Below, one piece after another: positions 34,983 through 59,029 of a DNA stretch of 64,000 nucleotides. The position numbers and the translations under genes were made by a program. The notes beneath the pieces are model-generated. The model was not told the DNA's origin. It saw nothing but the letters and a program-made list of their open reading frames with translations, and did no database searches. The stretch covers positions 20,483 through 84,482 of the forward strand of contig DULU01000052.1 in NCBI GenBank assembly GCA_012840225.1, given 5' to 3'. The DNA comes from Bacillota bacterium (GTDB lineage: Bacteria; Bacillota; Limnochordia; DTU080). The first letter of the stretch is position 1. Each line of letters starts with the position of its first letter.

Positions 34983-36254
34983 ATGAAAAAATTGGTATCG
35001 CTTTTGACCGCAGTTTTGGCTCTGGCTCTGATCGGCACCATGCCTGCCGTCGCCGCCGGAGTCCTGAAGACGGACGGCAAACTTGCCGGGGAATACAAAA
35101 TACAGAACGGTAACCTGCCGGCTGCAGCCAACTTGACCACCGAGGTCAATCTGGCGGTGGAGGCTGAGGAGGAAGGCTGGCGGGCCGAGGCGGAGTTGGG
35201 TAACCTCATCGGCGGCGCGACCGCTTTGGGTGAGTATCAGATCGAGTTCCGCGATCCCAGGCTCAACCTCAGCTTCTGGGGTCTGGGCCGGGAATACCAG
35301 GAAGAGGATCTCACCGATCCATTTGAGTTCATAACCTCCGCACACAAATATATGGGCAATTTGAAGGCCCGGGCTATTGCCGGTCCGCTCACGGTGGATT
35401 TTGAGGACGACGGCGAGTTCTTCGTGTTCGGCGAGAAAGAGATCGCCGGGCAGACCCTCGGTATCGCCGCCCACCACAAATTGCCCTTGAGCAACGGCTT
35501 CACCGCTTTAGGCTACGACCGCATCAACCTGGCCGGTGTAGAGCTGACTGCCGGTGTGGGTGTCAACACCAAAGCCACCGCTCCCTCAGATCTGGCCTAT
35601 GCGGTGAAAGCCGAGGTGCCGGTACCTGTGGTGCCGGAACTGAAAGCTATCGCCCAGTTTAAGATCCAGCCGGCCGGCTTCAACGGCGCCGATGAAAAGG
35701 AAATCAAGCTGGAAGGCGTGCATGAGACGGACTTGCTGAAAGTGAACGGTTCATTCGCCAACGCCATGTCCAATACCACCGGAGCATTCAAACAGAATGT
35801 AGTGGAAGCCACAGCAGAGTGGCGTGGGGCCAAAGGCGAGCTGGACTGGGACGAGCAGTTTGAGAGCGATGAATACTTCAAGAACACGGCTCCTGCCGTC
35901 CGGGCGCAGCTCAACCGCACCACCACTCCGGGCGACGTGGTCGCTACCAAAATAGCCGTGACCGGCACCTCGCCCATCATTCCCGGACAGGTCTGGGTGC
36001 TCGGCAGCCTGGTTAATGAACCGGAAGCCAAGCGCACGGAGATCAAGGGCGACGGTTATATCAAGATGAGTGAAAAGATCATCCTGGAACCGGGTGTACG
36101 CTATGAGAAGGCTCCGGTCGAAACCATGGAGCTGATCGGCAAGGCCACCTATCAGATGAATGAAAACGGTAAAGTATGGGCCAAATATGCCCAGAAAAAC
36201 ACCGGAGGCACGAGGAACGACGAGATCAGCGCCGGATACGAAGTGCTGTTTTAA
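34983..36254 (+). CDS. Predicted outer-membrane beta-barrel protein (paralog A; signal peptide, C-terminal Y-x-V-L-F)
   Basis: Sec signal peptide MKKLVSLLTAVLALALIGTMPAVAAG. Beta-rich alternating composition. C-terminus ISAGYEVLF with terminal Phe and hydrophobics at -3/-5/-7. RBS AAGGGGGATAA is shared with the paralogs. Confidence 0.6.
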   Translation: MKKLVSLLTAVLALALIGTMPAVAAGVLKTDGKLAGEYKIQNGNLPAAANLTTEVNLAVEAEEEGWRAEAELGNLIGGATALGEYQIEFRDPRLNLSFWGLGREYQEEDLTDPFEFITSAHKYMGNLKARAIAGPLTVDFEDDGEFFVFGEKEIAGQTLGIAAHHKLPLSNGFTALGYDRINLAGVELTAGVGVNTKATAPSDLAYAVKAEVPVPVVPELKAIAQFKIQPAGFNGADEKEIKLEGVHETDLLKVNGSFANAMSNTTGAFKQNVVEATAEWRGAKGELDWDEQFESDEYFKNTAPAVRAQLNRTTTPGDVVATKIAVTGTSPIIPGQVWVLGSLVNEPEAKRTEIKGDGYIKMSEKIILEPGVRYEKAPVETMELIGKATYQMNENGKVWAKYAQKNTGGTRNDEISAGYEVLF

Positions 36255-36332
36255 TCGGACAGCGGTTTTCAGCCGGCGTTTGCTCCGGACCCAATAATAA
36301 AATAAATATAGAAAATAACAGAAATAGTGGTG

Positions 36333-36374
36333 AGAGCACCTGCACCGGTCGGCGCAGGTGCTCTTTCTTCTTTT
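36333..36374 (+). terminator. Rho-independent terminator
   Basis: AGAGCACCTGC-accggtcggc-GCAGGTGCTCT followed by TTCTTCTTTT. Confidence 0.65.
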
Positions 36375-36893
36375 CAGCTTTCAGCTTCCCTCAGCCGTCA
36401 GTTTCCCTCCGCTTATCTTTAATCTATGTTTTTATTGGTTTTATAGTTAAAAATTGCAATTGGCCGGAAGGAATTGGCGTTATCATGATGAAATATCGTA
36501 TAACTTCTGCAGCCGGATATGGGTACGAGGGGAATAAAAATAAAGTATGTAAGGTAATCCTTACATCCCTTGACGGGAAGCGATAAATTTACCAAAAAAG
36601 GCAGCGAACCAGCAGGAAAACGAGGATATTAGTAAAAACATACAAGGTGCATAGAGGGCGAAGGCTATAAGTCCGGATTAACTGGCGGTAGGGAAAGGAG
36701 GTGCACCCCGAGGTTTACCGCGAGTGCAGTGAATCACCGGACATAGCGGGGGGCTGGATGCCGGTAACGAAAGCGTCTGCTGTTCACTAATGGTAACAAG
36801 GTCACTTTAGTGAAGATATGGCGCTGTGTCCGGCCGGCAGTAAACATACGCATGCTCCTCTTAATAAATGAAAAAACTAAGGGGGTTCTATAA

Positions 36894-38240
36894 ATGAAGA
36901 AGCTAGTATTAGCTCTATGTCTAGTGCTGACATTGAGTGTGGCGGCATATGCCGACACCACAGTTGAGGTGGGTATTACCGGACAGGTCAAGTGGGATGC
37001 CAACGTAGCTCAGAAAGACGATCCCGGCTATGGGAGCCAACCGGTCCTCAAGGTAACAAGCAAGGGAACCGGCTGGACGGCCTCTTTTGATACCTTCTAC
37101 AACCGCTTCAAGCTCCAGGGCAGCGAAGGCCCGTTGAGCGTAGCGGTATGGGGAGGCTTTGGTCCCAGCGGTTTGGGCGTGGCGAGCTATGAGCGTGTAT
37201 CGCCCGTAGTCCGTCCGGACAGCACGTTCAACTGGATCCAGGGCGCTCAGGATTCCAATGCGAGCAACTGGAGATTCCGCACCGTATATAACCATAGCCT
37301 GGCCAAGTTGACCCTGGACTACGATAATCAAAGCGACCAAGCCATCCTGGCGGCTGAGAAGACCATCTCCGGCTTCGCTTCCGGTATTGGTGTCCAGCGT
37401 TCTACCAACCCGACCAAGGACGAGTCCGTCTTCGCCGCTTGGACCAGCGGCAAGATCGCCGGTGCGACGGTGGTCGGCGTAGGTGCCATCCAGGCGGTCA
37501 ACGGCGACACCAAGGATCGTACCAGCGTCGGTGTCAAAGCCACCTATACCATTCAGCCGATCAACGTCACGGCCATGGGTTACTTCATGGTGCGCGGCAA
37601 GAGCTTCGGCAATGTCACCACCGGTTATATCGAAGGTTCCAAGAACATCATCAACAACCTTGGCAACCTCTATGGTTACTTCAAGTATGATAAAAATGCT
37701 ACCACTGATGTCGTCACCACCAACATCTATGGTCGTCTGCGCCTGCGCGGCGATACCGGATCCGCGTTCAACTGGAACCTGGTAGACGGTTACACCAGGG
37801 ATCGCAGCTGGCTCAAGGTGAAGACCTACTCCAGCCAGTTCTACGTCCAGAGAACCCAGGCGGGTGATAAAGTCAGCCTGTTCAGGTTCTATGGCTTAGG
37901 CGTGGTTAAGTTGGATGTGGCCAAAGGTCTGTGGGTCCGTCCCGAGATCTACATCGAGCCCATCGCCAATGCTAACAAGGACAAGAGAACACTCGTCAAT
38001 GGCAATGCTTATCTGCAGCTGACCGACCGGGTCTTTGCCGAGGCGACCGGACAGTATCAGAATAGGAGCCAGGATGACAATCCTTCCAATAACTTCAGCG
38101 TTTCCATCGGCTTCTCCGCCGATCCGGTAACCGTGCATCTGGAGCCCACCAAGCGGGTAACGTTGAAGGTCGAGTCTTCGACCAGCACCGCCAATGTGAC
38201 CACCAATTCGGCTACGCTGAACTACCTCCTGGTCTTCTAA
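36894..38240 (+). CDS. Predicted outer-membrane beta-barrel protein (paralog B)
   Basis: Signal peptide MKKLVLALCLVLTLSVAAYA. ~55% identical to paralog C over its length (shared blocks QRSTNPTKDESV..WTSGKI, GRLRLRGD.GS...W.LVD.YTR, GLWVRPE.YIEP, LVNGNAYL.LTDRV). C-terminus ATLNYLLVF. Confidence 0.65.
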   Translation: MKKLVLALCLVLTLSVAAYADTTVEVGITGQVKWDANVAQKDDPGYGSQPVLKVTSKGTGWTASFDTFYNRFKLQGSEGPLSVAVWGGFGPSGLGVASYERVSPVVRPDSTFNWIQGAQDSNASNWRFRTVYNHSLAKLTLDYDNQSDQAILAAEKTISGFASGIGVQRSTNPTKDESVFAAWTSGKIAGATVVGVGAIQAVNGDTKDRTSVGVKATYTIQPINVTAMGYFMVRGKSFGNVTTGYIEGSKNIINNLGNLYGYFKYDKNATTDVVTTNIYGRLRLRGDTGSAFNWNLVDGYTRDRSWLKVKTYSSQFYVQRTQAGDKVSLFRFYGLGVVKLDVAKGLWVRPEIYIEPIANANKDKRTLVNGNAYLQLTDRVFAEATGQYQNRSQDDNPSNNFSVSIGFSADPVTVHLEPTKRVTLKVESSTSTANVTTNSATLNYLLVF

Positions 38241-52204: not shown

Positions 52205-54241
52205 ATGGCGCTAGAGAAGAATCCTATCAGCCTTGTGCATTTTATGGCTTATCCTGGTCCGGGTAATACCCGCTCCGTGCAGAGAGGGGAAGCCAGGGCT
52301 GAGTACCTATTGCACACTTTGGAAGAGGTGCTGAATGATCCATATTTCCAGGGTGTGGAAATAACCTATATAAAGAATGATCAAATACGGGCCAAAGTGG
52401 CCGATCTGCTGAAAGCGTCGGGCAAAAGGGTGATATTCGGTGCCCAGCCCGTGCAGCTGATCAATGAGGACGGCCTCATTCCGCCCGGCGATATCTCTTG
52501 TCCCGACGAGGTCGGCCGGCGTCAAGCCGTGCAGCGGCTGAAAAAATGCCTGGAGCAGGCATATGAGTTAGGCGCGGTGGATTTCGGTTTGATAAGTGGC
52601 GCCGATCCTGGGGCGGCATCGGGTTTGGACAGGCGGGAAGCAGCCAAAACCCAACTTCTCAGATCTCTGCACGAATTGTGTGTGTATGCCGGAGAGCTGG
52701 CCCAAAAGCAGGGACGTACGCCCATCCGCATCACCTTGGAGCTTTTCGACCGCTCTACCGAACCGGGGCACAAGAACCAGCTGATCGGTCCGGCCAGGGA
52801 AGCGGTGGAGCTGGCTCGGATTATGCAGGATGCCTACGGCCATCGCAATTTCGGCTTGCTATATGATCTGAGTCATATGCCTCTCATCAAGGGGCGGAGC
52901 TTCAATGCCGAGACGCCTGAAGTGCTGCGGGAGTTGGCTCCCTTCCTCAATCATGTGCATATCGGTACCTGTGTTACCAATCCGGAGGACAAGCTATACG
53001 GCGACTCCCATCCTCGCCTGGACTATCCCGGCAGCGCCGTTACCCAGGAAATGCTGGCCGACTTCCTCAAAATGCTGGTGGATATCGGTTATGAGGGCGG
53101 CATCGGCTTTGAAGTGGTGCCATATGGGGACGAGCTTTCTTCGGCCGTGGTGCGCAGCACGCAAACCATCTTCGACATCGCCCGCAACCGGATCGATGTC
53201 AACTATTGCCTGGGAACCTTTTATTTCCAGCCTCGCCGCTTCTTCAACGAGACGTGGTTCGACATGCTGAACGAGTTGCGGGTTAGCCGGCCGAATGCCG
53301 TCGCCGAGGCTGCCGCCGCCCGCCGTCGCCGTTCCACCCTCACCGAGGACGGCAAACTGGTGATTGTGGCCGCCGACCATCCGGCCCGGCGGGTGACCCG
53401 CGTGGGGAGCGATCCCACCGCCATGGGCGACCGGATGAGTTATCTCGGGCGCATCGTCCGCACTCTCCTCGGTAAAGGCGTGGACGGGGTGATGGCCACA
53501 CCCGATATTATTGAAGAACTCCTGCTGATCGATGTCCTGCTCAAGGAGAAAGGCCGCAAGGAAGGCATTCTTGACGGCAAGCTGGTGATCGGTTCCATGA
53601 ACCGCAGCGGTCTGGCCGGCGTGGAATATGAGATGGACGACCGCCTCACCGCCATGACTGTGGAGCATTTGAAGCAGCTTAATTGCGACGGCGGCAAACT
53701 CTTGCTGCGCATTGATCCGGGGCGTCATTCCCGCTATTCTATCGCCACCATGGCCTATTGCGCCCAGGCGGTGAGCGACTGCCGCAAAGCCGGCTTGCCG
53801 GTATTTGTGGAGCCTTTGCCGGTGGAAGAGACGCCTGAGGGGTATAAAGTGGTGATGACGCCGGATGCCTTGATCCAGACCATCGGTGTGGCCACCTCGC
53901 TGGGCGGTTCAGCTCATCACATGTGGATCAAGGTACCGTATGTAAATGACTACCACCGGGTGGTAAAAGCGACCACCTTGCCCATTTTGATGTTGGGCGG
54001 GGCGTCCAAAGAAAATCCCTTGCCCACCATCAGGGAGTTTGAGCAAGGTATGGGCGAAGGTGCCAATGTGCGGGGCGTGATGGTCGGCCGGAATGTCCTC
54101 TACTGCGGCAAGGACGATCCCTTGGCCGTGGTGGAAGCGATCGCCATGATCGTGCACCAGGGCGCCGGCATGGATGAAGCTGTCCGCCATCTCGCCGCAG
54201 CCCGGGGCCGTTCCTACGACTGGTTTGAGACCCTCATTTAG
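52205..54241 (+). CDS. Two-domain fusion: N-terminal xylose-isomerase-like TIM-barrel (sugar phosphate isomerase/epimerase) + C-terminal class-I-aldolase-like (DeoC/LacD/Cgl0159-type) barrel
   Basis: N-terminal half (~1-330) has the sugar-phosphate isomerase/epimerase pattern (metal-binding E/D/H positions, GFEVVPYGDE). C-terminal half (~340-678) resembles DhnA/LacD-type class I aldolase-like barrels (KLVIVAADHP...GVDGVMATPD...KLLLRID...FVEPLP). Single uninterrupted 678-aa ORF. Confidence 0.55.
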   Translation: MALEKNPISLVHFMAYPGPGNTRSVQRGEARAEYLLHTLEEVLNDPYFQGVEITYIKNDQIRAKVADLLKASGKRVIFGAQPVQLINEDGLIPPGDISCPDEVGRRQAVQRLKKCLEQAYELGAVDFGLISGADPGAASGLDRREAAKTQLLRSLHELCVYAGELAQKQGRTPIRITLELFDRSTEPGHKNQLIGPAREAVELARIMQDAYGHRNFGLLYDLSHMPLIKGRSFNAETPEVLRELAPFLNHVHIGTCVTNPEDKLYGDSHPRLDYPGSAVTQEMLADFLKMLVDIGYEGGIGFEVVPYGDELSSAVVRSTQTIFDIARNRIDVNYCLGTFYFQPRRFFNETWFDMLNELRVSRPNAVAEAAAARRRRSTLTEDGKLVIVAADHPARRVTRVGSDPTAMGDRMSYLGRIVRTLLGKGVDGVMATPDIIEELLLIDVLLKEKGRKEGILDGKLVIGSMNRSGLAGVEYEMDDRLTAMTVEHLKQLNCDGGKLLLRIDPGRHSRYSIATMAYCAQAVSDCRKAGLPVFVEPLPVEETPEGYKVVMTPDALIQTIGVATSLGGSAHHMWIKVPYVNDYHRVVKATTLPILMLGGASKENPLPTIREFEQGMGEGANVRGVMVGRNVLYCGKDDPLAVVEAIAMIVHQGAGMDEAVRHLAAARGRSYDWFETLI

Positions 54242-54309
54242 TCGCTTCTCAGGAAGGTCACTTCTCAGGAAGGTCGCTTCTTAGGCAGGTTACTTCAGGA
54301 GGTTAGATT
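54242..54309 (+). repeat. ~4 x 16-17-bp tandem repeat (GTCRCTTCTCAGGAAG) ending in the deoR-family gene RBS/start
   Basis: tcgcttctcaggaag gtcacttctcaggaag gtcgcttcttaggcag gttacttcaggagg. Each unit ends in an SD-like AGGAAG/AGGAGG. The last unit supplies the RBS for the TTG start at 54310. Confidence 0.65.
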
Positions 54310-55071
54310 TTGTTTGCTGAAGAGCGCCGGAGAATGATAGCCGCTGATCTGCAGGTGCGGGGTCGGGTGCTGGCCGGCGAGCTGGCCAAGCGGTATGGTG
54401 TGACGGAAGAGACCATCCGGCGTGACCTTAAGTGGCTGGAAGCAGCGGGAAAAGCTGTCAGAACCCATGGGGGAGCGCTTTGGCGCGGCGAAGCCGGGCT
54501 GCTCCCCCCGCTCGCCATCCGGCAAGGCAAATCATACGCAGCCAAACGGGCCATCGGTGCTTACGCCGCCGGTTTAGTTAACGACGGCCAGGCGATATTT
54601 ATCGATTCGGGCAGCACGGCCCTGGAATTGGCCCGGTCCTTGCGCCAGAAGAAGAACCTGCATGTGGTGACCAATTCCCTGCTGGTGGCCAATGAGCTGG
54701 CCACCGGCGAGGGGATAGAGGTACATATGCCCGGGGGCACACTCCGGGCCGATGAGATGTGCCTGGTAGGCCCGGAAGCGGTGGCCGGACTGGCTCATTA
54801 TCGGGCCGATTTGGCCTTCATCAGCTGCGCCGGGGTAGATCCCAAAAGTGGTGTGGCCGTGTACAACTCCTTTCAGGCCGAAGTCAAGCGGGCGATGTTG
54901 CGCCATGCGGCCAGGCGGGTGCTGCTGGTGGATTCTACCAAGCTCGGACAGGTCGCCTTAGTACAAGTGGCGAAATGCGATGAATTCGACCTCATGATAA
55001 CCGACTCAGGAGCCGGAGAGGACAAAACGATTCTCTTCCGCCAGGCAGGCGTGGAAGTAGCGATCGCCTAA
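54310..55071 (+). CDS. DeoR/GlpR family transcriptional regulator
   Basis: N-terminal HTH (RRRMIAADLQVRGRVLAGELAKRYGVTEETIRRDLKWLE) and C-terminal DeoR sugar-phosphate-binding domain (IFIDSGSTALELA...VVTNSL). Confidence 0.8.
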   Translation: MFAEERRRMIAADLQVRGRVLAGELAKRYGVTEETIRRDLKWLEAAGKAVRTHGGALWRGEAGLLPPLAIRQGKSYAAKRAIGAYAAGLVNDGQAIFIDSGSTALELARSLRQKKNLHVVTNSLLVANELATGEGIEVHMPGGTLRADEMCLVGPEAVAGLAHYRADLAFISCAGVDPKSGVAVYNSFQAEVKRAMLRHAARRVLLVDSTKLGQVALVQVAKCDEFDLMITDSGAGEDKTILFRQAGVEVAIA

Positions 55072-55115
55072 CCGGCAGGCTTCGCTTTCGCTTTCGCTTC
55101 ACCTTTTATCTTGGT

Positions 55116-56537
55116 TTATTCGTTCTTCGCCTTCAGTATCTTCTCACGGTAATTCGTCATCTGCTTCTCCAGATAATTAACAAGCAAATTGTAGCCGGTG
55201 AGATCCCGCAAAGGCGCCCATGGAATAGCCTGCTTTATCTTCTCCGTTATTCTGGCCAGGCTCAAGTCCTCCCACCTGAAGATAAGGAGCGTTATATTTC
55301 TTTCATTGCAGATCTTCTGCTTGGTCTTATCCAGCCTCTTCTGCTTGGCTACTGCCGATTGATTATATAGATCGGTCGCCCGATAATGCTGCTCTCCGTT
55401 GAACTCGCAGGCCACATTCTGCTTTTCATAATAGCGGTCGAAGTGCATCTGCTCATGAGTATATGGATTCTTTAAAAAATCGGGTGTGGCATTGTCGACG
55501 CCGTTATCCCACTCCAGGATCAGATTTAGGGCCTCCCGCATCAGAGCTTCGCCACGGAATTTGGCCCGGTAGAGATTGTGCTCTGCCTTCAGCATCTTGA
55601 TCCTTACCGGGTTGCTGATATAAAACAGCTTATCTTTCGTCTTTTTCATGGTGCGGATGTCGATCCACTCTTCATCGCGCAGTTTGAACAAAGCTCGGCG
55701 TACCGTCTTAACATTCAAGTAGAGCATCTTGGCAATACTGGTATATGTATAGGTGGCTTCACGGGAGCTGCGCTTATATTTCGGCAAGGTTTGCAAGGTG
55801 CCATATATCAATCTGGCCTGCGCACCTAGACGCGTATCATTGACCAAATCAACCGGTATATAAACCTTCTTGCAATAATTGTAACGCGGCGTGAAAATCG
55901 TGGCGGCTAAAGCCTGGCGGCGCTCCCGAGCCTGAGCCTGGATTTGGGCCTGGATCTGAGCTAACTGTGCCTGGAACTGCTCCTCGTTCAGTACCTGAGC
56001 CTGATTTATTTCCTGAGCTTGAGCCTGTGTTTGGAGGCCTTGATTGCCGACCTGTGGTGGGAATGGCGGGAGCTGCGTCTGTGCTTGATGCCAGGCATTG
56101 ACCTGACCTTGGATGGGAGGTTGGCTTTTCATTTGGGGATCATTTTGTATCGGGTAGAATGCTTGAGGGGGAGTGGGATGAGAAGGAGTATGGATTGACT
56201 GCGTATGGGTTGACTGCACCGGCGGTTTGATCCAGATCTCCGGCTGCACCAACCACTTGTGGATATAGAGCTGGGAAAGAGCACAGCATACAGTAGGCTT
56301 GGACAACCCGATTCGCTCAGCTATCCTTGCCGGGCAATAGAGCTGATCAGGATCAATGCGGGCATCGTTGACATCCAAGGCTAAAGCCATCCAAACCAAT
56401 TTGGCCGAATTGGACAAATCTGGCTCCAGCAGGAGGTCTTTTGGCACCCACACCACTTTATTAATATTGATGATTTTGCTTGCCATAAAGCAACCACGCT
56501 CCGATTCCCCGGCATGGCTGCGCGCAAGCGTTCTCAT
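55116..56537 (-). CDS. Foreign-looking protein: two tandem winged-HTH domains, Gln-rich linker, C-terminal DUF559/Vsr-like (restriction-endonuclease-fold) domain
   Basis: Two homologous HTH modules (residues ~20-95 and ~215-300). Q/A-rich coiled linker QAQAQEINQAQVLNEEQFQAQLAQIQAQIQAQARE. C-terminal CEFNGEQHY...D...K...L...G..LLIFRWEDL resembles the E-x-D-G-x-Q-H...R(F/I) pattern of DUF559/Vsr-like nucleases. Local GC is ~45-50% versus ~62% in the flanks. Confidence 0.6.
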   Translation of the reverse strand: MRTLARSHAGESERGCFMASKIININKVVWVPKDLLLEPDLSNSAKLVWMALALDVNDARIDPDQLYCPARIAERIGLSKPTVCCALSQLYIHKWLVQPEIWIKPPVQSTHTQSIHTPSHPTPPQAFYPIQNDPQMKSQPPIQGQVNAWHQAQTQLPPFPPQVGNQGLQTQAQAQEINQAQVLNEEQFQAQLAQIQAQIQAQARERRQALAATIFTPRYNYCKKVYIPVDLVNDTRLGAQARLIYGTLQTLPKYKRSSREATYTYTSIAKMLYLNVKTVRRALFKLRDEEWIDIRTMKKTKDKLFYISNPVRIKMLKAEHNLYRAKFRGEALMREALNLILEWDNGVDNATPDFLKNPYTHEQMHFDRYYEKQNVACEFNGEQHYRATDLYNQSAVAKQKRLDKTKQKICNERNITLLIFRWEDLSLARITEKIKQAIPWAPLRDLTGYNLLVNYLEKQMTNYREKILKAKNE

Positions 56538-56810
56538 TCTGCTTCTCCACTCTGGCTGTGAATCCTGCCGGCGTGAAATAAAAATTATAAAGGTCGTATA
56601 TAAAACAGATGCAATATTAATTGGAATATAATTACAGCACGTAATGTAATAATTACATGATGTAACAGGCTGTCGATGATGGCCACTATATAAAAACCTC
56701 CAGTTCAGACCGTATCAGTCCACGGATATGACCATCGTTTCCCTGCTCTCTGTATAAAAGTATGAATCGGTTTGGGCGTACCGATGAGAGGTTAGAGTTA
56801 AACTGGATAA

Positions 56811-57320
56811 CGATTCGGAATAGTGGCATTACGAGGTGGGAAATAACAATAGGCCGGATCTGGCAAAAGGCCAGCTCAGAAAATCCGGGCTTCGGGGTGA
56901 AGGTATTTGTTTTCTCCCCCTCAGAAGTCAGACTAATCCGGATGGTTCGGATGAGTGCCGGACGACAAATACGGCCGGGGATTGGGAATAGTGGCATTAC
57001 GAGGCGGGAAAAAACAATAGGCCGGATCTGGCGAAAGGCCAGCTCAGGAAATCCGGGTTTCGGGGAGAGGGTATTTGTTTTCTCCCCCTCAGAAGTCAGG
57101 CAAATCAGGAAGGTGTGGATGAGTGCCAGGTGGCAAAAATGGCAGACGATTGGGAATAGAGGCATTGCGGGGCGAAAAAAAACAATGGGCCGGATCTGGC
57201 AAAAGGCCAGCTCAGGAAGACCGGGTCTGTGGGTGAGGGTATTTGTTTTCTTCTCTTTGGATGTCAGGCAAATCAGAAAATGGTGCATAAATGATGGGGA
57301 GCGGGAGGCACAAGTGGATA
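56811..57320 (+). repeat. Three tandem copies of a ~169-bp non-coding repeat, each containing the hairpin CTGGCAAAAGGCCAG
   Basis: Units begin at ~56811, ~56981 and ~57149 (GATTGGGAATAGTGGCATTACGAGG...GGCCGGATCTGGCAAAAGGCCAGCTCAG...GGTATTTGTTTTCTCCCCCTCAGAAGTCAG) with ~85-90% identity between copies. ORFs on both strands across it are repeat artefacts. Confidence 0.85.
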
Positions 57321-57478
57321 TAGACCAAGCGAGAATTCGGGTATGTATTTTCTAGCATGGGTTTTATGGTGGGAAAGAATGCTAAACTGTTAGAAAGAAT
57401 GCACAGCTGCGGACCGGCTAAAGGTTCCGGTCAGAGGTTAAGGCGGAAAGTGGAGTAGATGCAGCTCTGGCTGTGGTT

Positions 57479-58288
57479 TCAGTTTTCGGCATCCTGGCTG
57501 GATGGACGGCGCCATTCATAGCGGTAACTGGGCAAGAGATCCTTCACGAAGGAATCTACCGCTTGCTCCAGGACGCCGGCTCTCACCTGGGGAACGGCAG
57601 TCCGTCTTAATTTGGGTAGGAGAGATTCCGGAGGTGGGGAGTCGTAGTGCCAGGTCAGTACTTCCAATTCGCTTTCTTCGTTGCTTTCGCTAACCTTTTT
57701 GGACCAGATTATTTCTCCCGTACCGGCATTGATGATTCTGACCTGGACCGTCAAGTGGATGTTGGTATTCAGGCTTGAATACCAGTTGGGAGATCTTCCT
57801 TCAGAAGTGGACCCGATGCGGTAGGGAACCTGTACATATATATCTTCCATATAATAGGTCACTTCGCCGGTGATCAAAACATCGCAGGAGAGAGCTTTAC
57901 CTAATCTAACCGCTGTTTCGGGACTGGTAGCCTCAACTGGGGTGATACCTAATTTAGCTAGGACGGCGGCGGTTGAAGCTCTGTCCTGGACGGTAAAATA
58001 CCCTGAGGAGGCGGCTACCTGGCCGAGCAAATCAGCGAATTCTATAGCAATCCCCGGATCATTGGTGGCGTTCACAAAATCGAGGATGGCGATGTTATTT
58101 ATGTCGCCTATGGGAGCTAACGGAGGGACGAGTACTCTGACTCGCTCTCCCATACATCCGGAGAGAAGCACCGCTAAACCACCTATTAAGCATAAGTAGA
58201 GGAAAAGCTGCCGGCGGTGTCCTGTAGAATTAAATGATCCGAAATACTCGGCCCAAAAATGCTCGGCCATGCGTTTTGCTTTATGCAT
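57479..58288 (-). CDS. Lipoprotein with TolB-N/LpoB/CsgG-like fold
   Basis: Lipobox LLSGC after a hydrophobic h-region. GDINNIAILDFVN...LITGEV pattern is reminiscent of LpoB/CsgG-type periplasmic lipoproteins. Confidence 0.5.
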   Translation of the reverse strand: MHKAKRMAEHFWAEYFGSFNSTGHRRQLFLYLCLIGGLAVLLSGCMGERVRVLVPPLAPIGDINNIAILDFVNATNDPGIAIEFADLLGQVAASSGYFTVQDRASTAAVLAKLGITPVEATSPETAVRLGKALSCDVLITGEVTYYMEDIYVQVPYRIGSTSEGRSPNWYSSLNTNIHLTVQVRIINAGTGEIIWSKKVSESNEESELEVLTWHYDSPPPESLLPKLRRTAVPQVRAGVLEQAVDSFVKDLLPSYRYEWRRPSSQDAEN

Positions 58289-58530
58289 GATTGCCTGCTG
58301 CCTCCGGATATTTATTACCCAGCAAACCTGCGCATATTACGATCCAACGATCCGGCAATCGGTAAAGTAAGTTCGAAGTGAAGTTCGGCGGATAGCTTCG
58401 GCGGGGAAACGGCGATATCCTGCTTTTTATGGGCATTTGTGCTTATTGTTGTGAAGGCGGAGGCTACCAAAAACAGGGAAAAGAAAAAAGAGAACGAATA
58501 ATATATGGCTTGTTGGTGGTCTGCATTGAC

Positions 58531-58563
58531 ATTGGCATTGGCATTGCCAACGCCAATGCCAAT
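58531..58563 (+). repeat. Hexamer (GCATTG)n array forming a 12-bp perfect inverted repeat (ATTGGCATTGGC-N9-GCCAATGCCAAT)
   Basis: The inverted repeat is directly visible. It is flanked by further (CGCAAC/GCAATC) hexamers up to ~58585. Confidence 0.5.
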
Positions 58564-58645
58564 CGCAACCGCAATCGCAACAACAAGCTGCCTAAATACC
58601 ACTTAAACTACTCATTTAGTAAAACATGTCTGGGGGGAAGTGTGT

Positions 58646-59029
58646 ATGTCTAAAGAGCGCAAGATCATCATTAAGGCTGACCAGGTGGTAAAAGAGGCTG
58701 TTCTCAACAACTCCAAAACGGCCGATGCTATCTGGGAAAAGCTGCCCATCACCGGTCGGGCTAACCGCTGGGGTGATGAAATTTACTTTTCCATACCTGT
58801 GCGCATAGGTCCGGAAAACGGGAAAGAAGTTGTTGAGGTGGGCGATCTGGGATATTGGCCTCCTGGTAATGCCTTCTGTATATTCTGGGGACCCACACCG
58901 GCCAGTGTAGGCAACGAAATCCGTCCTGCCAGTCCGGTGAATGTATTCGGCCGCATCGTAAAGGGAGCCACTGATTTCAAGGCGGTACGTTCGGGCTGCC
59001 AGATCGAAATAAGAAAGGCTGAGGAATAG
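58646..59029 (+). CDS. Cyclophilin-like superfamily protein (PF04126-like)
   Basis: GDLGYWPPGNAFCIFWGPTP and ~125-aa length fit the cyclophilin-like (TM1367-type) family. RBS GGGGGGAAG lies upstream. Confidence 0.5.
   Translation: MSKERKIIIKADQVVKEAVLNNSKTADAIWEKLPITGRANRWGDEIYFSIPVRIGPENGKEVVEVGDLGYWPPGNAFCIFWGPTPASVGNEIRPASPVNVFGRIVKGATDFKAVRSGCQIEIRKAEE

What the first reader, a model, noticed from the sequence alone, without database searches (positions are those of the whole stretch)
55080..57450. Low-GC ~2.3-kb insertion: 2xHTH + DUF559/Vsr-like nuclease-fold protein adjacent to three ~169-bp tandem repeats
Between the DeoR regulator gene (end 55071) and the lipoprotein gene (57479) the composition drops to ~45-50% GC and the strand/codon style changes. 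The single gene (55116-56537, minus) encodes an unusual architecture. It has two homologous winged-HTH modules resembling phage/plasmid replication-initiator or DnaD-like DNA-binding domains, a Gln/Ala-rich coiled linker, and a C-terminal domain with the E-F-N-G-E-Q-H-Y...D...K...L...G..LLIFRW pattern of DUF559/Vsr-like restriction-endonuclease-fold nucleases. Next to it lie three tandem ~169-bp repeats, each with a perfect small hairpin (CTGGC-AAAAG-GCCAG). Together this looks like a horizontally acquired element: a mobile-element remnant with an iteron-like origin or repeat RNA, or a small defence/addiction-type nuclease locus. The domain combination is not a standard annotated family to my knowledge.
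Basis: partly seen in the sequence, partly recalled or inferred. Interest (0 to 1): 0.65.

Follow-up and report, generated by a model that had tools for sequence, protein, structure and literature searches.

The report
Selfish nuclease gene with repeat array
A low-GC insertion carries one gene for a DNA-binding protein fused to a DNA-cutting domain, next to an array of its probable binding sites; relatives of this gene-plus-repeat unit have copied themselves around another bacterial genome, so it looks like an undescribed kind of small mobile element.

Summary

The family contains about 230 50%-identity clusters. It is found in uncultured Bacillota (Limnochordia, Symbiobacteriaceae, Thermaerobacter), has several copies per genome, and is absent from the plasmid collection.

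In one long-read Limnochordia MAG, at least 7 loci carry the same 1.9-kb unit (core, gene, 94-bp array, core) at 90-97% identity with unrelated flanks. This shows recent amplification.

A syntenic relative lacks the gene, the array and also the neighbouring CsgG-like gene. The insertion is therefore about 55072-58640, not 55080-57450.

Best reading: a single-gene selfish element whose nuclease is targeted to its own direct repeats. How it moves is inferred, not shown. I found no support for a repeat RNA or a defence locus.

The parts
55116..56537 (-). ORF for the family protein (473 aa as listed). The probable true start is ATG 56486 (MASKIININ..., 456 aa).
   Evidence: The ORF is listed. ATG 56537 is ACG/AAG in paralogues L001/L002, whereas ATG 56486 is conserved. 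Residues 1-25 are disordered in the model.
56253..56456 (-). Winged-helix domain 1 (aa 28-95).
   Evidence: The AF2 full-length model has pLDDT 89-97 in this region. It is homologous to domain 2, E 6e-7. P32 and K46 are invariant.
55896..56237 (-). Q/P/A-rich linker: a disordered stretch (aa 101-167) followed by a long helix (aa 170-214). Its length is hypervariable among relatives.
   Evidence: Structure. Linker length ranges from 0 to about 330 aa in the family, and the L001 protein is 665 aa.
55617..55868 (-). Winged-helix domain 2 (aa 224-307), resembling replication initiators and DnaD.
55218..55556 (-). Vsr-like (EDxHD-type) PD-(D/E)XK nuclease domain (aa 328-440), with E330, D367, E378, N380, H384 and D403.
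56584..56589 (-). Conserved TATAAT, the probable -10 of the gene's promoter.
   Evidence: CCTTTATAAT is conserved in the window, L001 and L002. The consensus scan proposes a different -35/-10 pair at 56676-56649. Both are predictions.
56628..56668 (.). Operator-like palindromes: a perfect TTACATGATGTAA at 56653-56665 plus an imperfect second copy.
   Evidence: 1 match; expected 0.04. The same TTACATNATGTAA pair sits at the same place upstream of paralogues L001, L002 and L003.
56766..56785 (-). Terminator-like hairpin between the array and the promoter.
   Evidence: I read a comparable hairpin plus T-run at the same position in L001 from its sequence; this is inference, not a tool result.
56812..57315 (.). 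Array of three 168-bp direct repeats: the probable cognate binding/cleavage sites and the end of the element.
   Evidence: The roughly 105-nt core of each unit is homologous to the 265-bp units upstream of the L001 paralogue, in the same orientation relative to the gene.
56860..56874 (.). Palindrome CTGGCAAAAGGCCAG in unit 1. The same palindrome occurs at 57028-57042 and 57196-57210.
   Evidence: Read from the sequence. The stem is intact in all three units, with one loop change in unit 2.
57355..57356 (.). Outer edge of the element: the point where another strain's contig departs from the window.
   Evidence: L172 (JGI 3300021045) is 99.6% identical up to here. Its last 120 bp are absent from the window.
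55072..58640 (.). Low-GC island (49.0% against 58.7%) that is absent from a syntenic relative.
   Evidence: Composition. L174 has 678aa-DeoR followed directly by cyclophilin-like, 2-phosphosulfolactate phosphatase, groES and groEL; compare the window order.
57479..58288 (-). CsgG-like lipoprotein gene. It lies inside the island but is not a regular partner of the family gene.
   Evidence: Pfam CsgG. GC 50.6%. Missing in L174. Not present at the other family loci.

Best explanation
The locus is one copy of a small, single-gene selfish DNA element. The element is made of three parts:
- a gene for a bipartite site-specific endonuclease: two replication-initiator-like winged-helix domains on a flexible linker, fused to a Vsr/EDxHD-type nuclease domain;
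- a palindromic operator next to or over the two candidate promoters of the gene;
- an array of long direct repeats, each carrying a conserved core.

**Proposed working.** The winged-helix pair binds the operator, giving autorepression, and binds the core in each repeat. The tethered nuclease nicks or cuts next to bound cores. Host recombination or repair between the direct repeats then copies, excises or re-inserts the gene-plus-repeat cassette and changes the repeat number.

**Shown**
- The fold and the conserved active-site residues.
- Gene, operator and repeat are inherited together.
- The family has several copies per genome.
- A relative amplified recently as a discrete 1.9-kb unit bounded by direct copies of the core.
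- The locus is absent from a syntenic relative.

**Inferred**
- That the protein binds the repeats.
- That it cuts there.
- That this cutting is what moves the element.

The window copy is an old, diverged but apparently intact member. It sits in a 3.6-kb low-GC island together with a CsgG-like gene.

For: **Repeats travel with the gene.**
- L001 has a homologous 265-bp x2.4 array and the same operator upstream.
- L002 and L003 each have a single unit plus the operator.
- 31 of 129 family loci have arrays of period 40 bp or more within 1.5 kb.
- Direct repeats of 30 bp or more occur in 22 of 58 gene-centred windows against 15 of 116 control windows.
- Some genes are flanked by direct repeats: L121 (300 bp), L016 (59 bp) and L168 (arrays on both sides).
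- L035 has a 35-bp-period array of GGAAT-N3-ATTCC palindromes.

**Mobility.**
- Seven loci of Limnochordia MAG SBF912LR0HQ0069, plus contig L015, share about 1.9 kb at 90-97% identity with unrelated flanks.
- Both ends of that unit are the same core in direct orientation.
- There are 3 to 7 copies per genome in other MAGs.
- Four diverged paralogues (L001, L002, L003, L006) come from the same metagenomes as the window organism, on contigs whose tetranucleotide signature correlates 0.91-0.93 with the window.
- Contigs repeatedly end at the array.
- Strain or assembly breakpoints fall at the element edge.

**Insertion.** L174 lacks the locus, and the locus is low-GC.
Against: - The window holds only one copy, and I found no empty site in a close relative. 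L174 is distant (DeoR 55% identical), so a deletion in that lineage is not excluded.
- Many family loci are orthologous and syntenic between related genomes. These copies are long-resident, which also fits a domesticated host gene.
- No recombinase, ligase or transposase domain is present, so there is no known route from cutting to insertion.
- Intact cores persist beside an apparently active nuclease gene.
- No solo cores were found in about 60 kb of flanks. No target-site duplication could be defined.
- Only 24-38% of loci show detectable arrays, and control DNA in these genomes is also fairly repeat-rich (13%).
- Array position relative to the gene differs between lineages: upstream in the window, downstream in the Limnochordia MAG.
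- The repeat sequences of distant members are unrelated.
- The active-site mapping rests on residue order and spacing, not on a structural superposition.
Confidence: 0.55

Rival explanations
1. A domesticated or host paralogue family. The protein is an autoregulated winged-helix DNA-binding factor. Its nuclease-fold domain serves a chromosomal function, for example local DNA processing at repeat arrays, or acts as a dimerisation module. The repeats are ordinary arrays of regulatory binding sites, not the ends of a mobile element.
For: - Many loci are conserved in synteny between related genomes.
- The paralogues in the window organism are old (28-75% aa identity) and all intact.
- A palindromic operator lies next to or over the two candidate promoters.
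- The family is confined to a few related Bacillota lineages.
- There is no plasmid hit, and no full-length relative on viral contigs.
Against: - A 1.9-kb unit at 90-97% identity occurs at 7 or more unrelated sites of one genome.
- The locus is low-GC relative to its flanks in the window organism.
- It is absent from a syntenic relative.
- The catalytic residues are invariant, so the domain is unlikely to be a mere scaffold.
- Rearrangement or assembly breaks fall at element edges.
Confidence: 0.2
2. An integrated iteron-type mini-replicon: the ori-rep module of a plasmid, satellite or integrative element. The two-winged-helix protein would be a replication initiator, the direct repeats its iterons, the palindrome its autorepression operator, and the nuclease an accessory nickase.
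For: - PHROG replication-initiator families match at 7e-6 to 3e-4.
- The layout of direct repeats, inverted-repeat operator and gene for two tandem winged helices is the layout of iteron plasmids (established knowledge of RepA/RepE/pi; the sequence anatomy is).
Against: - There is no match in 72,556 plasmids, and no full-length match on viral contigs.
- All contexts are chromosomal housekeeping genes.
- There is no Pfam Rep family hit.
- The units are 35-450 bp rather than about 20-bp iterons.
- No partition, mobilisation or integrase genes are present.
- The nuclease domain is the best-conserved part of the protein.
Confidence: 0.12
3. The tandem repeats encode small RNAs, either regulatory or guides for the nuclease, rather than protein-binding DNA.
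For: - Units 1 and 2 fold better than shuffles on the gene-sense strand (z -2.8 and -3.3).
- A terminator-like hairpin follows the array on that strand.
- GC skew across the array is strong.
Against: - There is no Rfam match at E up to 1.
- Unit 3, the L001 units and the Limnochordia units fold no better than shuffles (z +1.7 to -0.9).
- No promoter-like site lies inside the units.
- The stable fold in the window is a DNA-level inverted repeat whose sequence is not kept in L001.
- Unit lengths and sequences are unrelated across the family.
Confidence: 0.05
4. A small defence or addiction locus: a nuclease toxin with repeats as decoys or an antidote.
For: - The gene is a standalone nuclease in a low-GC island.
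- Vsr/DUF2726-like nuclease domains are common in conflict systems and viruses.
Against: - There is no PADLOC match.
- There is no conserved partner gene at any of the loci inspected.
- The neighbourhoods are housekeeping genes, not defence islands.
- The several near-identical copies in one genome are not typical of defence genes.
Confidence: 0.05

Closest known systems
EDxHD homing endonucleases (I-Bth0305I; PDB 3r3p) and Vsr endonuclease (PDB 1cw0)
   Same: - The catalytic residues follow the same order.
- The logic is bipartite: an N-terminal sequence-reading DNA-binding region tethered to a C-terminal Vsr-like cutter (PMC3239194).
- The phage family matches are to 'homing / intron-encoded endonuclease' families.
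   Different: - There is no intron or intein host, and the gene is not in a phage.
- The DNA-binding part is two Rep/DnaD-like winged helices instead of NUMOD/HTH motifs.
- The gene sits in a bacterial chromosome next to long direct-repeat arrays and can be multi-copy within one genome.
- Sequence similarity is below detection in PDB sequence searches.
Iteron-plasmid initiators (RepA_N RepA of pSK41/pTZ2162, PDB 4pta; RepA/RepE/pi type WH1-WH2 proteins)
   Same: - Two tandem winged-helix domains joined by a flexible linker.
- Direct repeats beside the gene.
- An inverted-repeat operator at the gene's own promoter.
   Different: - Chromosomal rather than plasmid-borne.
- An extra nuclease domain.
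- Repeat units of 35-450 bp rather than about 20 bp.
- No Pfam Rep family membership.
DUF559 (PF04480) / DUF2726 (PF10881) / RAP-domain Vsr-like PD-(D/E)XK domains
   Same: - Some family members give weak Pfam matches.
   Different: - The window protein itself matches neither Pfam model at E up to 1.
- The domain partners differ.
Insertion sequences and free-standing homing endonuclease genes of phages
   Same: - A single-gene unit of 1.9-2.3 kb with defined ends.
- Several near-identical copies in one genome for the Limnochordia relative.
- An intergenic location between unrelated genes.
   Different: - No DDE, HUH, serine or tyrosine transposase.
- The ends are direct repeats, not inverted repeats.
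- No target-site duplication could be defined.
- Free-standing homing genes spread between genomes at one locus, not to many loci of one genome.

Membership tests
Vsr-like / EDxHD endonucleases | Vsr-type variant of the PD-(D/E)XK fold | tested here: met
   [not shown]
Vsr-like / EDxHD endonucleases | Conserved catalytic set E...D...(acid)-x-N/H...H...D | tested here: met
   E330, D367, E378, H384 and D403 are invariant and N380 is N/Q in 20-23 sequences. Their order and spacing agree with I-Bth0305I E170/D196/N208/H213/D222. The mapping is by sequence order only; no structural superposition was available.
Vsr-like / EDxHD endonucleases | Gene resides in a group I intron or intein, or is free-standing in a phage genome | tested here: not met
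   The gene is chromosomal and intergenic. No intron family matched in Rfam. Viral contigs hold only the nuclease core, never the full architecture.
Vsr-like / EDxHD endonucleases | Site-specific DNA cleavage that promotes the gene's own inheritance | not testable with these tools
   This needs enzyme assays and mobility assays.
DUF559 / DUF2726 (Pfam) | Score above the Pfam gathering threshold | tested here: not met
   The window protein has no hit at E up to 1. Among 16 members, 8 give weak DUF2726 hits (best 6.4e-4) and 1 gives a DUF559 hit (5.7e-3).
Iteron-type replication initiators | Two winged-helix domains, adjacent direct repeats, and an inverted-repeat operator at the promoter | tested here: met
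   for the domains. for the repeats. for the operator and promoter.
Iteron-type replication initiators | Carried on a plasmid, phage or other replicon; matches a Rep protein family | tested here: not met
   No plasmid match. No Pfam Rep family, only weak PHROG initiator hits. All loci are chromosomal.
Iteron-type replication initiators | Supports autonomous replication from the repeats | not testable with these tools
   This needs a replication assay.
Insertion sequences / transposons | Encodes a DDE, HUH, serine or tyrosine transposase | tested here: not met
   Pfam, NCBIfam and PHROGs give no transposase match. The fold search gives only winged-helix and Vsr-like hits.
Insertion sequences / transposons | Terminal inverted repeats and target-site duplications | tested here: not met
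   The ends of the amplified Limnochordia unit are direct copies of a core of about 45 bp. No inverted repeats were found in the window array region. Target-site duplications could not be determined.
Insertion sequences / transposons | Several near-identical copies with unrelated flanks in one genome | tested here: met
   This is met for relatives: 7 loci at 90-97% identity in one long-read MAG. It is not met for the window, which has a single copy.
Known anti-phage defence systems | Match to a PADLOC model, or a defence-island context | tested here: not met
   No PADLOC hit. The neighbours are housekeeping genes.
Known structured RNA families | Rfam covariance-model match in the repeats | tested here: not met
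   Nothing in 54000-59000 apart from one chance-level snoRNA hit inside deoR (E 0.66).

The most novel reading that the evidence does not exclude
This family is a new class of prokaryotic mobile element that moves without any canonical transposase or recombinase. It would be a cassette bounded by direct repeats. Its only protein is a Rep-like winged-helix pair fused to a Vsr/EDxHD nuclease. That protein recognises the repeat cores and, by nicking or cutting them, recruits host recombination to copy the cassette into other core-bearing sites and to expand or contract the arrays. In effect this would be homing into the element's own repeats.
Probability: 0.3. Interest if true: 0.8.

Novelty: new variant of a known kind. 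Interest (0 to 1): 0.62.

Why it matters
If the model is right, it adds a transposition-like route that uses only a targeted nuclease plus direct repeats, which would widen the catalogue of bacterial mobile DNA. It would also explain the long-period tandem arrays and assembly breaks seen in Limnochordia- and Symbiobacteriaceae-type genomes from digesters and hot environments. It would provide a compact, modular, sequence-specific nuclease: two winged helices, each with a readable cognate site, joined to a Vsr-type cutter. The I-Bth0305I authors already suggested that this kind of scaffold could be useful for engineered nucleases (PMC3239194). At the least, the work defines an unannotated protein family (about 230 clusters at 50% identity) with a clear domain assignment and testable DNA sites.

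Tried and rejected
- **Pfam, NCBIfam and PADLOC on the protein.** These gave only weak HTH hits, no DUF559, and no defence model.
- **PDB sequence searches, single sequence and profile.** Nothing significant; only fold comparison worked.
- **Rfam on 54-59 kb.** Nothing.
- **RNA folding of units on both strands.** The result was inconsistent, so I dropped the RNA reading.
- **A universal core motif across the family.** The TTGCC...GGTGAyGTAA core is limited to the Limnochordia clade and L003/L004. The window array has no similarity to the arrays of L137, L139, L160, L028 or L005, despite the shared 168-bp period in L137/L139.
- **A second core downstream of the gene in window-type elements.** None found. 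Homology between paralogues stops at the stop codon.
- **Solo cores or empty sites near the Limnochordia copies.** None in the flanks held. The sequence after the arrays of L097 and L119 is not a second element.
- **Coding potential of the array.** Long ORFs cross it on both strands only because 168 is a multiple of 3. The 265-bp and 94-bp units of relatives are not multiples of 3, so I rejected it.
- **Synteny with the closer DeoR relative L173.** It breaks at deoR and is uninformative.
- **AlphaFold database fold search.** The afdb50 library was unavailable.
- **Literature searches.** Searches on DUF2726, Vsr-like, winged helix, EDxHD and tandem repeats found no description of this architecture.
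Full report
**1. What is in the window**

ORF 55116-56537 (-) lies between a DeoR gene (54310-55071, +) and a CsgG-like lipoprotein gene (57479-58288, -). GC falls from 58.7% in the rest of the window to 49.8% in the gene and 51.6% in the repeats, with a 41.7% trough at 56450-56749. The low-GC stretch continues through the lipoprotein gene (50.6%) to about 58.6-59 kb.

Tandem Repeats Finder gives a 168-bp period with 2.8 copies and 85% matches at 56810-57276. In register, the units are 56812-56979, 56980-57147 and 57148-57315, at 100/86/68% identity. Each unit keeps the palindrome CTGGC-N5-GCCAG. A degenerate 35-nt core pattern matches only these three places in 64 kb, against 0 expected. Three corrections apply: the period is 168, the inserted segment is larger than stated, and the start codon is probably ATG 56486.

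**2. The protein**

Pfam sees only weak winged-helix matches at aa 236-292 (HTH_24 at 1.8e-5, HTH_36 at 9e-5). It gives no DUF559 hit. NCBIfam and PADLOC give nothing. PHROGs matches aa 353-439 to 'HNH / homing / intron-encoded endonuclease' families (3e-10 to 2e-9) and aa 225-310 to 'replication initiation protein' families (7e-6 to 3e-4).

The BFVD viral library returns giant-virus 'restriction endonuclease', phage 'homing endonuclease', 'VSR endonuclease', and DUF2726 and DUF559 proteins.

The full-length model (pLDDT 81) shows these regions:

| Residues | Region |
|---|---|
| 1-25 | disordered |
| 28-95 | winged helix 1 |
| 101-167 | disordered linker |
| 170-214 | 45-residue helix |
| 224-307 | winged helix 2 |
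| 328-440 | nuclease |
| 450-472 | terminal helix |

The two winged helices are homologous to each other (29% identity, E 6e-7). Across the family E330, D367, E378, G381, H384, T388, Q399, D403 and K406 are invariant, and position 380 is N or Q. The I-Bth0305I paper lists the Vsr-type active site as E170/E25, D196/D51, an acid at the Vsr F62 position, N208/H64, H213/H69 and D222/D97 (PMC3239194). The invariant residues found here follow the same order and similar spacing. I infer an active nuclease. This mapping is by sequence order, not by superposition.

**3. The family**

A word-indexed search found only 20 relatives. An exhaustive profile search with the C-terminal domain found 231 cluster representatives at E up to 1e-30 and 3,687 at E up to 1e-10. 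These are mostly 300-450 aa with the domain at the C-terminus, which is the same architecture.

In species-representative genomes, almost all of the best 80 loci come from uncultured Bacillota: Limnochordia, Symbiobacteriaceae, Thermaerobacter, Fermentithermobacillaceae and unclassified Clostridia. There are 3 to 7 loci per MAG. Two record titles outside Bacillota are probably binning errors.

There is no match in 72,556 plasmids. In phages and IMG/VR, only the nuclease core matches, never the winged-helix-plus-nuclease protein.

**4. The repeats belong to the gene**

The closest paralogue locus, L001, has a C-terminal half 75% identical to the window protein. Its true ORF is 665 aa with a very large Q/P linker. 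It carries a 265-bp x2.4 array 370 bp upstream of the gene. The first 105 nt or so of its unit align with the window unit, in the same orientation relative to the gene. L002 and L003 each have a single such unit.

Between the array and the gene, all four loci share a TTACATNATGTAA palindrome pair and a conserved CCTTTATAAT. In the window these are at 56628-56668 and 56584-56589. A consensus scan places an alternative promoter across the palindromes.

Across the family:
- 31 of 129 loci have arrays of period 40 bp or more within 1.5 kb of the gene. They lie upstream or downstream, with periods of 42-265 bp and up to 9.6 copies.
- Direct repeats of 30 bp or more occur in 22 of 58 gene-centred windows, against 15 of 116 control windows from the same loci.
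- Some genes are bracketed by direct repeats: L121 (300 bp, 94% identical, 1,811 bp apart), L016 (59 bp) and L168 (arrays on both sides plus 29-30-bp iterons).
- L035 has a 35-bp-period array of GGAAT-N3-ATTCC palindromes.

Repeat sequences are lineage-specific. That is expected if they co-evolve with the DNA-reading domains.

**5. Evidence for mobility**

*Recent amplification in a relative.* In the long-read Limnochordia MAG SBF912LR0HQ0069, seven loci on six contigs of 107-678 kb share about 1.9 kb at 90-97% nucleotide identity. Metagenome contig L015 carries the same unit. The flanks align only at background level (53%). The shared unit has this order:
- a core of about 45 bp (…GAGCATCGGCCGyyTCTTGCCGAATTGGGTGATGTAAC);
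- about 160 bp of spacer;
- the gene (368 aa);
- about 285 bp of spacer;
- three to 4.6 units of 94 bp, each made of the core plus a GC-rich hairpin;
- a final core.

The unit is therefore discrete, recently amplified and bounded by direct repeats of the core. No known transposase is present.

*Source of the window.* The window comes from a biogas-fermenter metagenome. A JGI contig from the same organism (99.6% identity) carries the same gene and array, and departs from the window exactly at 57355/57356. Two other contigs end in or just beyond the array.

*Paralogues in the same organism.* Four diverged paralogues (L001, L002, L003, L006) come from the same two JGI metagenomes. Their contigs have tetranucleotide signatures that correlate 0.91-0.93 with the window, against 0.3-0.6 for unrelated loci. 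Each is lower in GC than its flanks. The same organism therefore probably holds five or more old copies. This is suggestive, not proven.

*Synteny.* A distant syntenic relative, L174, has 678aa-DeoR followed directly by cyclophilin-like, 2-phosphosulfolactate phosphatase, groES and groEL. The window has the family gene, the array and the CsgG-like gene between DeoR and the cyclophilin-like gene. The indel is thus about 55072-58640 and coincides with the low-GC stretch.

**6. Mechanism**

*Shown:*
- a bipartite protein with two Rep-like winged helices and a Vsr/EDxHD-type nuclease with a conserved active site;
- co-inheritance of gene, operator and direct repeats;
- several copies per genome;
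- one recent burst of a unit bounded by direct repeats;
- absence of the locus from a syntenic relative.

*Inferred:* the winged helices bind the palindrome, giving autorepression, and bind the repeat cores. The nuclease nicks or cuts beside bound cores. Host recombination between direct repeats then excises, copies or inserts the cassette and changes repeat number.

*Open:* which of three routes operates, namely homing into core-bearing sites, cut-and-ligate cassette movement, or break-induced copying. I put 0.55 on the selfish-element reading as a whole.

**7. Rivals**

- A domesticated host regulator or DNA-processing factor (0.20). It is supported by the many syntenic, long-resident copies.
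- An integrated iteron mini-replicon (0.12). It is supported by the RepA-like fold and the iteron-plus-operator layout, but there is no plasmid or viral occurrence.
- Repeat-encoded RNA (0.05). There is no Rfam hit and folding is inconsistent.
- A defence or addiction locus (0.05). There is no PADLOC hit and no partner gene.

**8. Comparison with known systems and novelty**

In fold and logic the protein is closest to EDxHD homing endonucleases, but it fails their context criteria: it is not in an intron, an intein or a phage. It resembles iteron initiators in layout, but it is not on a replicon and matches no Rep family. It is not a Pfam DUF559 or DUF2726 member by score. It lacks every hallmark of an insertion sequence except multi-copy spread.

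Literature searches found no description of this architecture. I rate it a new variant of a known kind, namely a selfish site-specific endonuclease element. I put roughly 0.3 on its being a new class of mobile element.

**9. Caveats**

- All evidence is computational.
- The window holds a single old copy.
- The syntenic comparator is distant.
- The same-genome assignment of the paralogues rests on composition and co-occurrence.
- Arrays are detectable at only a quarter to a third of family loci.

Noticed in passing
window 57479-58288 (and the island 55072-58640): The CsgG-like lipoprotein gene is itself low-GC (50.6%). Together with the family gene and array, it is absent from the syntenic relative L174. 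It is not found next to other family members, so it may be separate cargo or an independent insertion.
   Followed up: partly
window 57355/57356; L172 10047-10166: A contig from the same organism in another metagenome (99.6% identity) diverges from the window exactly at the outer edge of the array. Its last 120 bp occur nowhere in the 64-kb window. This is a strain-level rearrangement or insertion at the element boundary.
   Followed up: partly
window 54241-54296: A 16-bp tandem repeat, GTCACTTCTCAGGAAG x3.5, lies between the 678-aa AP_endonuc_2/Cgl0159 gene and the deoR start. It may be a DeoR operator array.
   Followed up: no
window 55081-55099: A hexamer repeat, TTCGCT x3.2, lies in the 44-bp spacer between the convergent stop codons of deoR and the family gene.
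   Followed up: no
window 34983-38240: A second low-GC stretch (47% at 36-37 kb) is the spacer between two paralogous signal-peptide-bearing, beta-rich proteins of 423 and 448 aa.
   Followed up: no
L003 155-1639 (and L004): I read a 494-aa minus-strand ORF, with no Pfam hit on record, as IS21-like from its translated sequence. It is inserted immediately upstream of the single repeat unit of paralogue P0005, and the contig ends just beyond it.
   Followed up: no
L160 5837-8155; L168 3264-4122 and 6020-6984; L121 664-963 and 2475-2774; L035 2995-3299: Other family loci have extreme repeat architectures: a 241-bp x9.6 array (2.3 kb); arrays on both sides of the gene; 300-bp direct repeats bracketing the gene; and a 35-bp-period array of GGAAT-N3-ATTCC palindromes.
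   Followed up: partly
L001 6789-8786; L002 618-2372: The linker between the two winged helices is hypervariable (0 to about 330 aa). In L001 and L002 it is a long Q/P-rich tract encoded by 18-bp DNA tandem repeats, and gene callers split the gene there.
   Followed up: partly
L106 1113-1173 and 3178; L107 4375 and 6381: Two MAG contigs share the left flank and a 2.0-kb gene-containing segment at 98% identity, but differ completely to the right of it. This is another breakpoint at an element edge, and L106 also has a 61-bp indel at the left edge.
   Followed up: partly
window 56812-56925 and 56980-57093, minus strand: Units 1 and 2 contain a 17-nt inverted repeat, GAGGGGGAGAAAACAA / TTGTTTTTTCCCGCCTC, that encloses the small palindrome (RNA z-scores -2.8 and -3.3). 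In L001 and L003 only an A-run / T-run pair is kept at these positions.
   Followed up: partly
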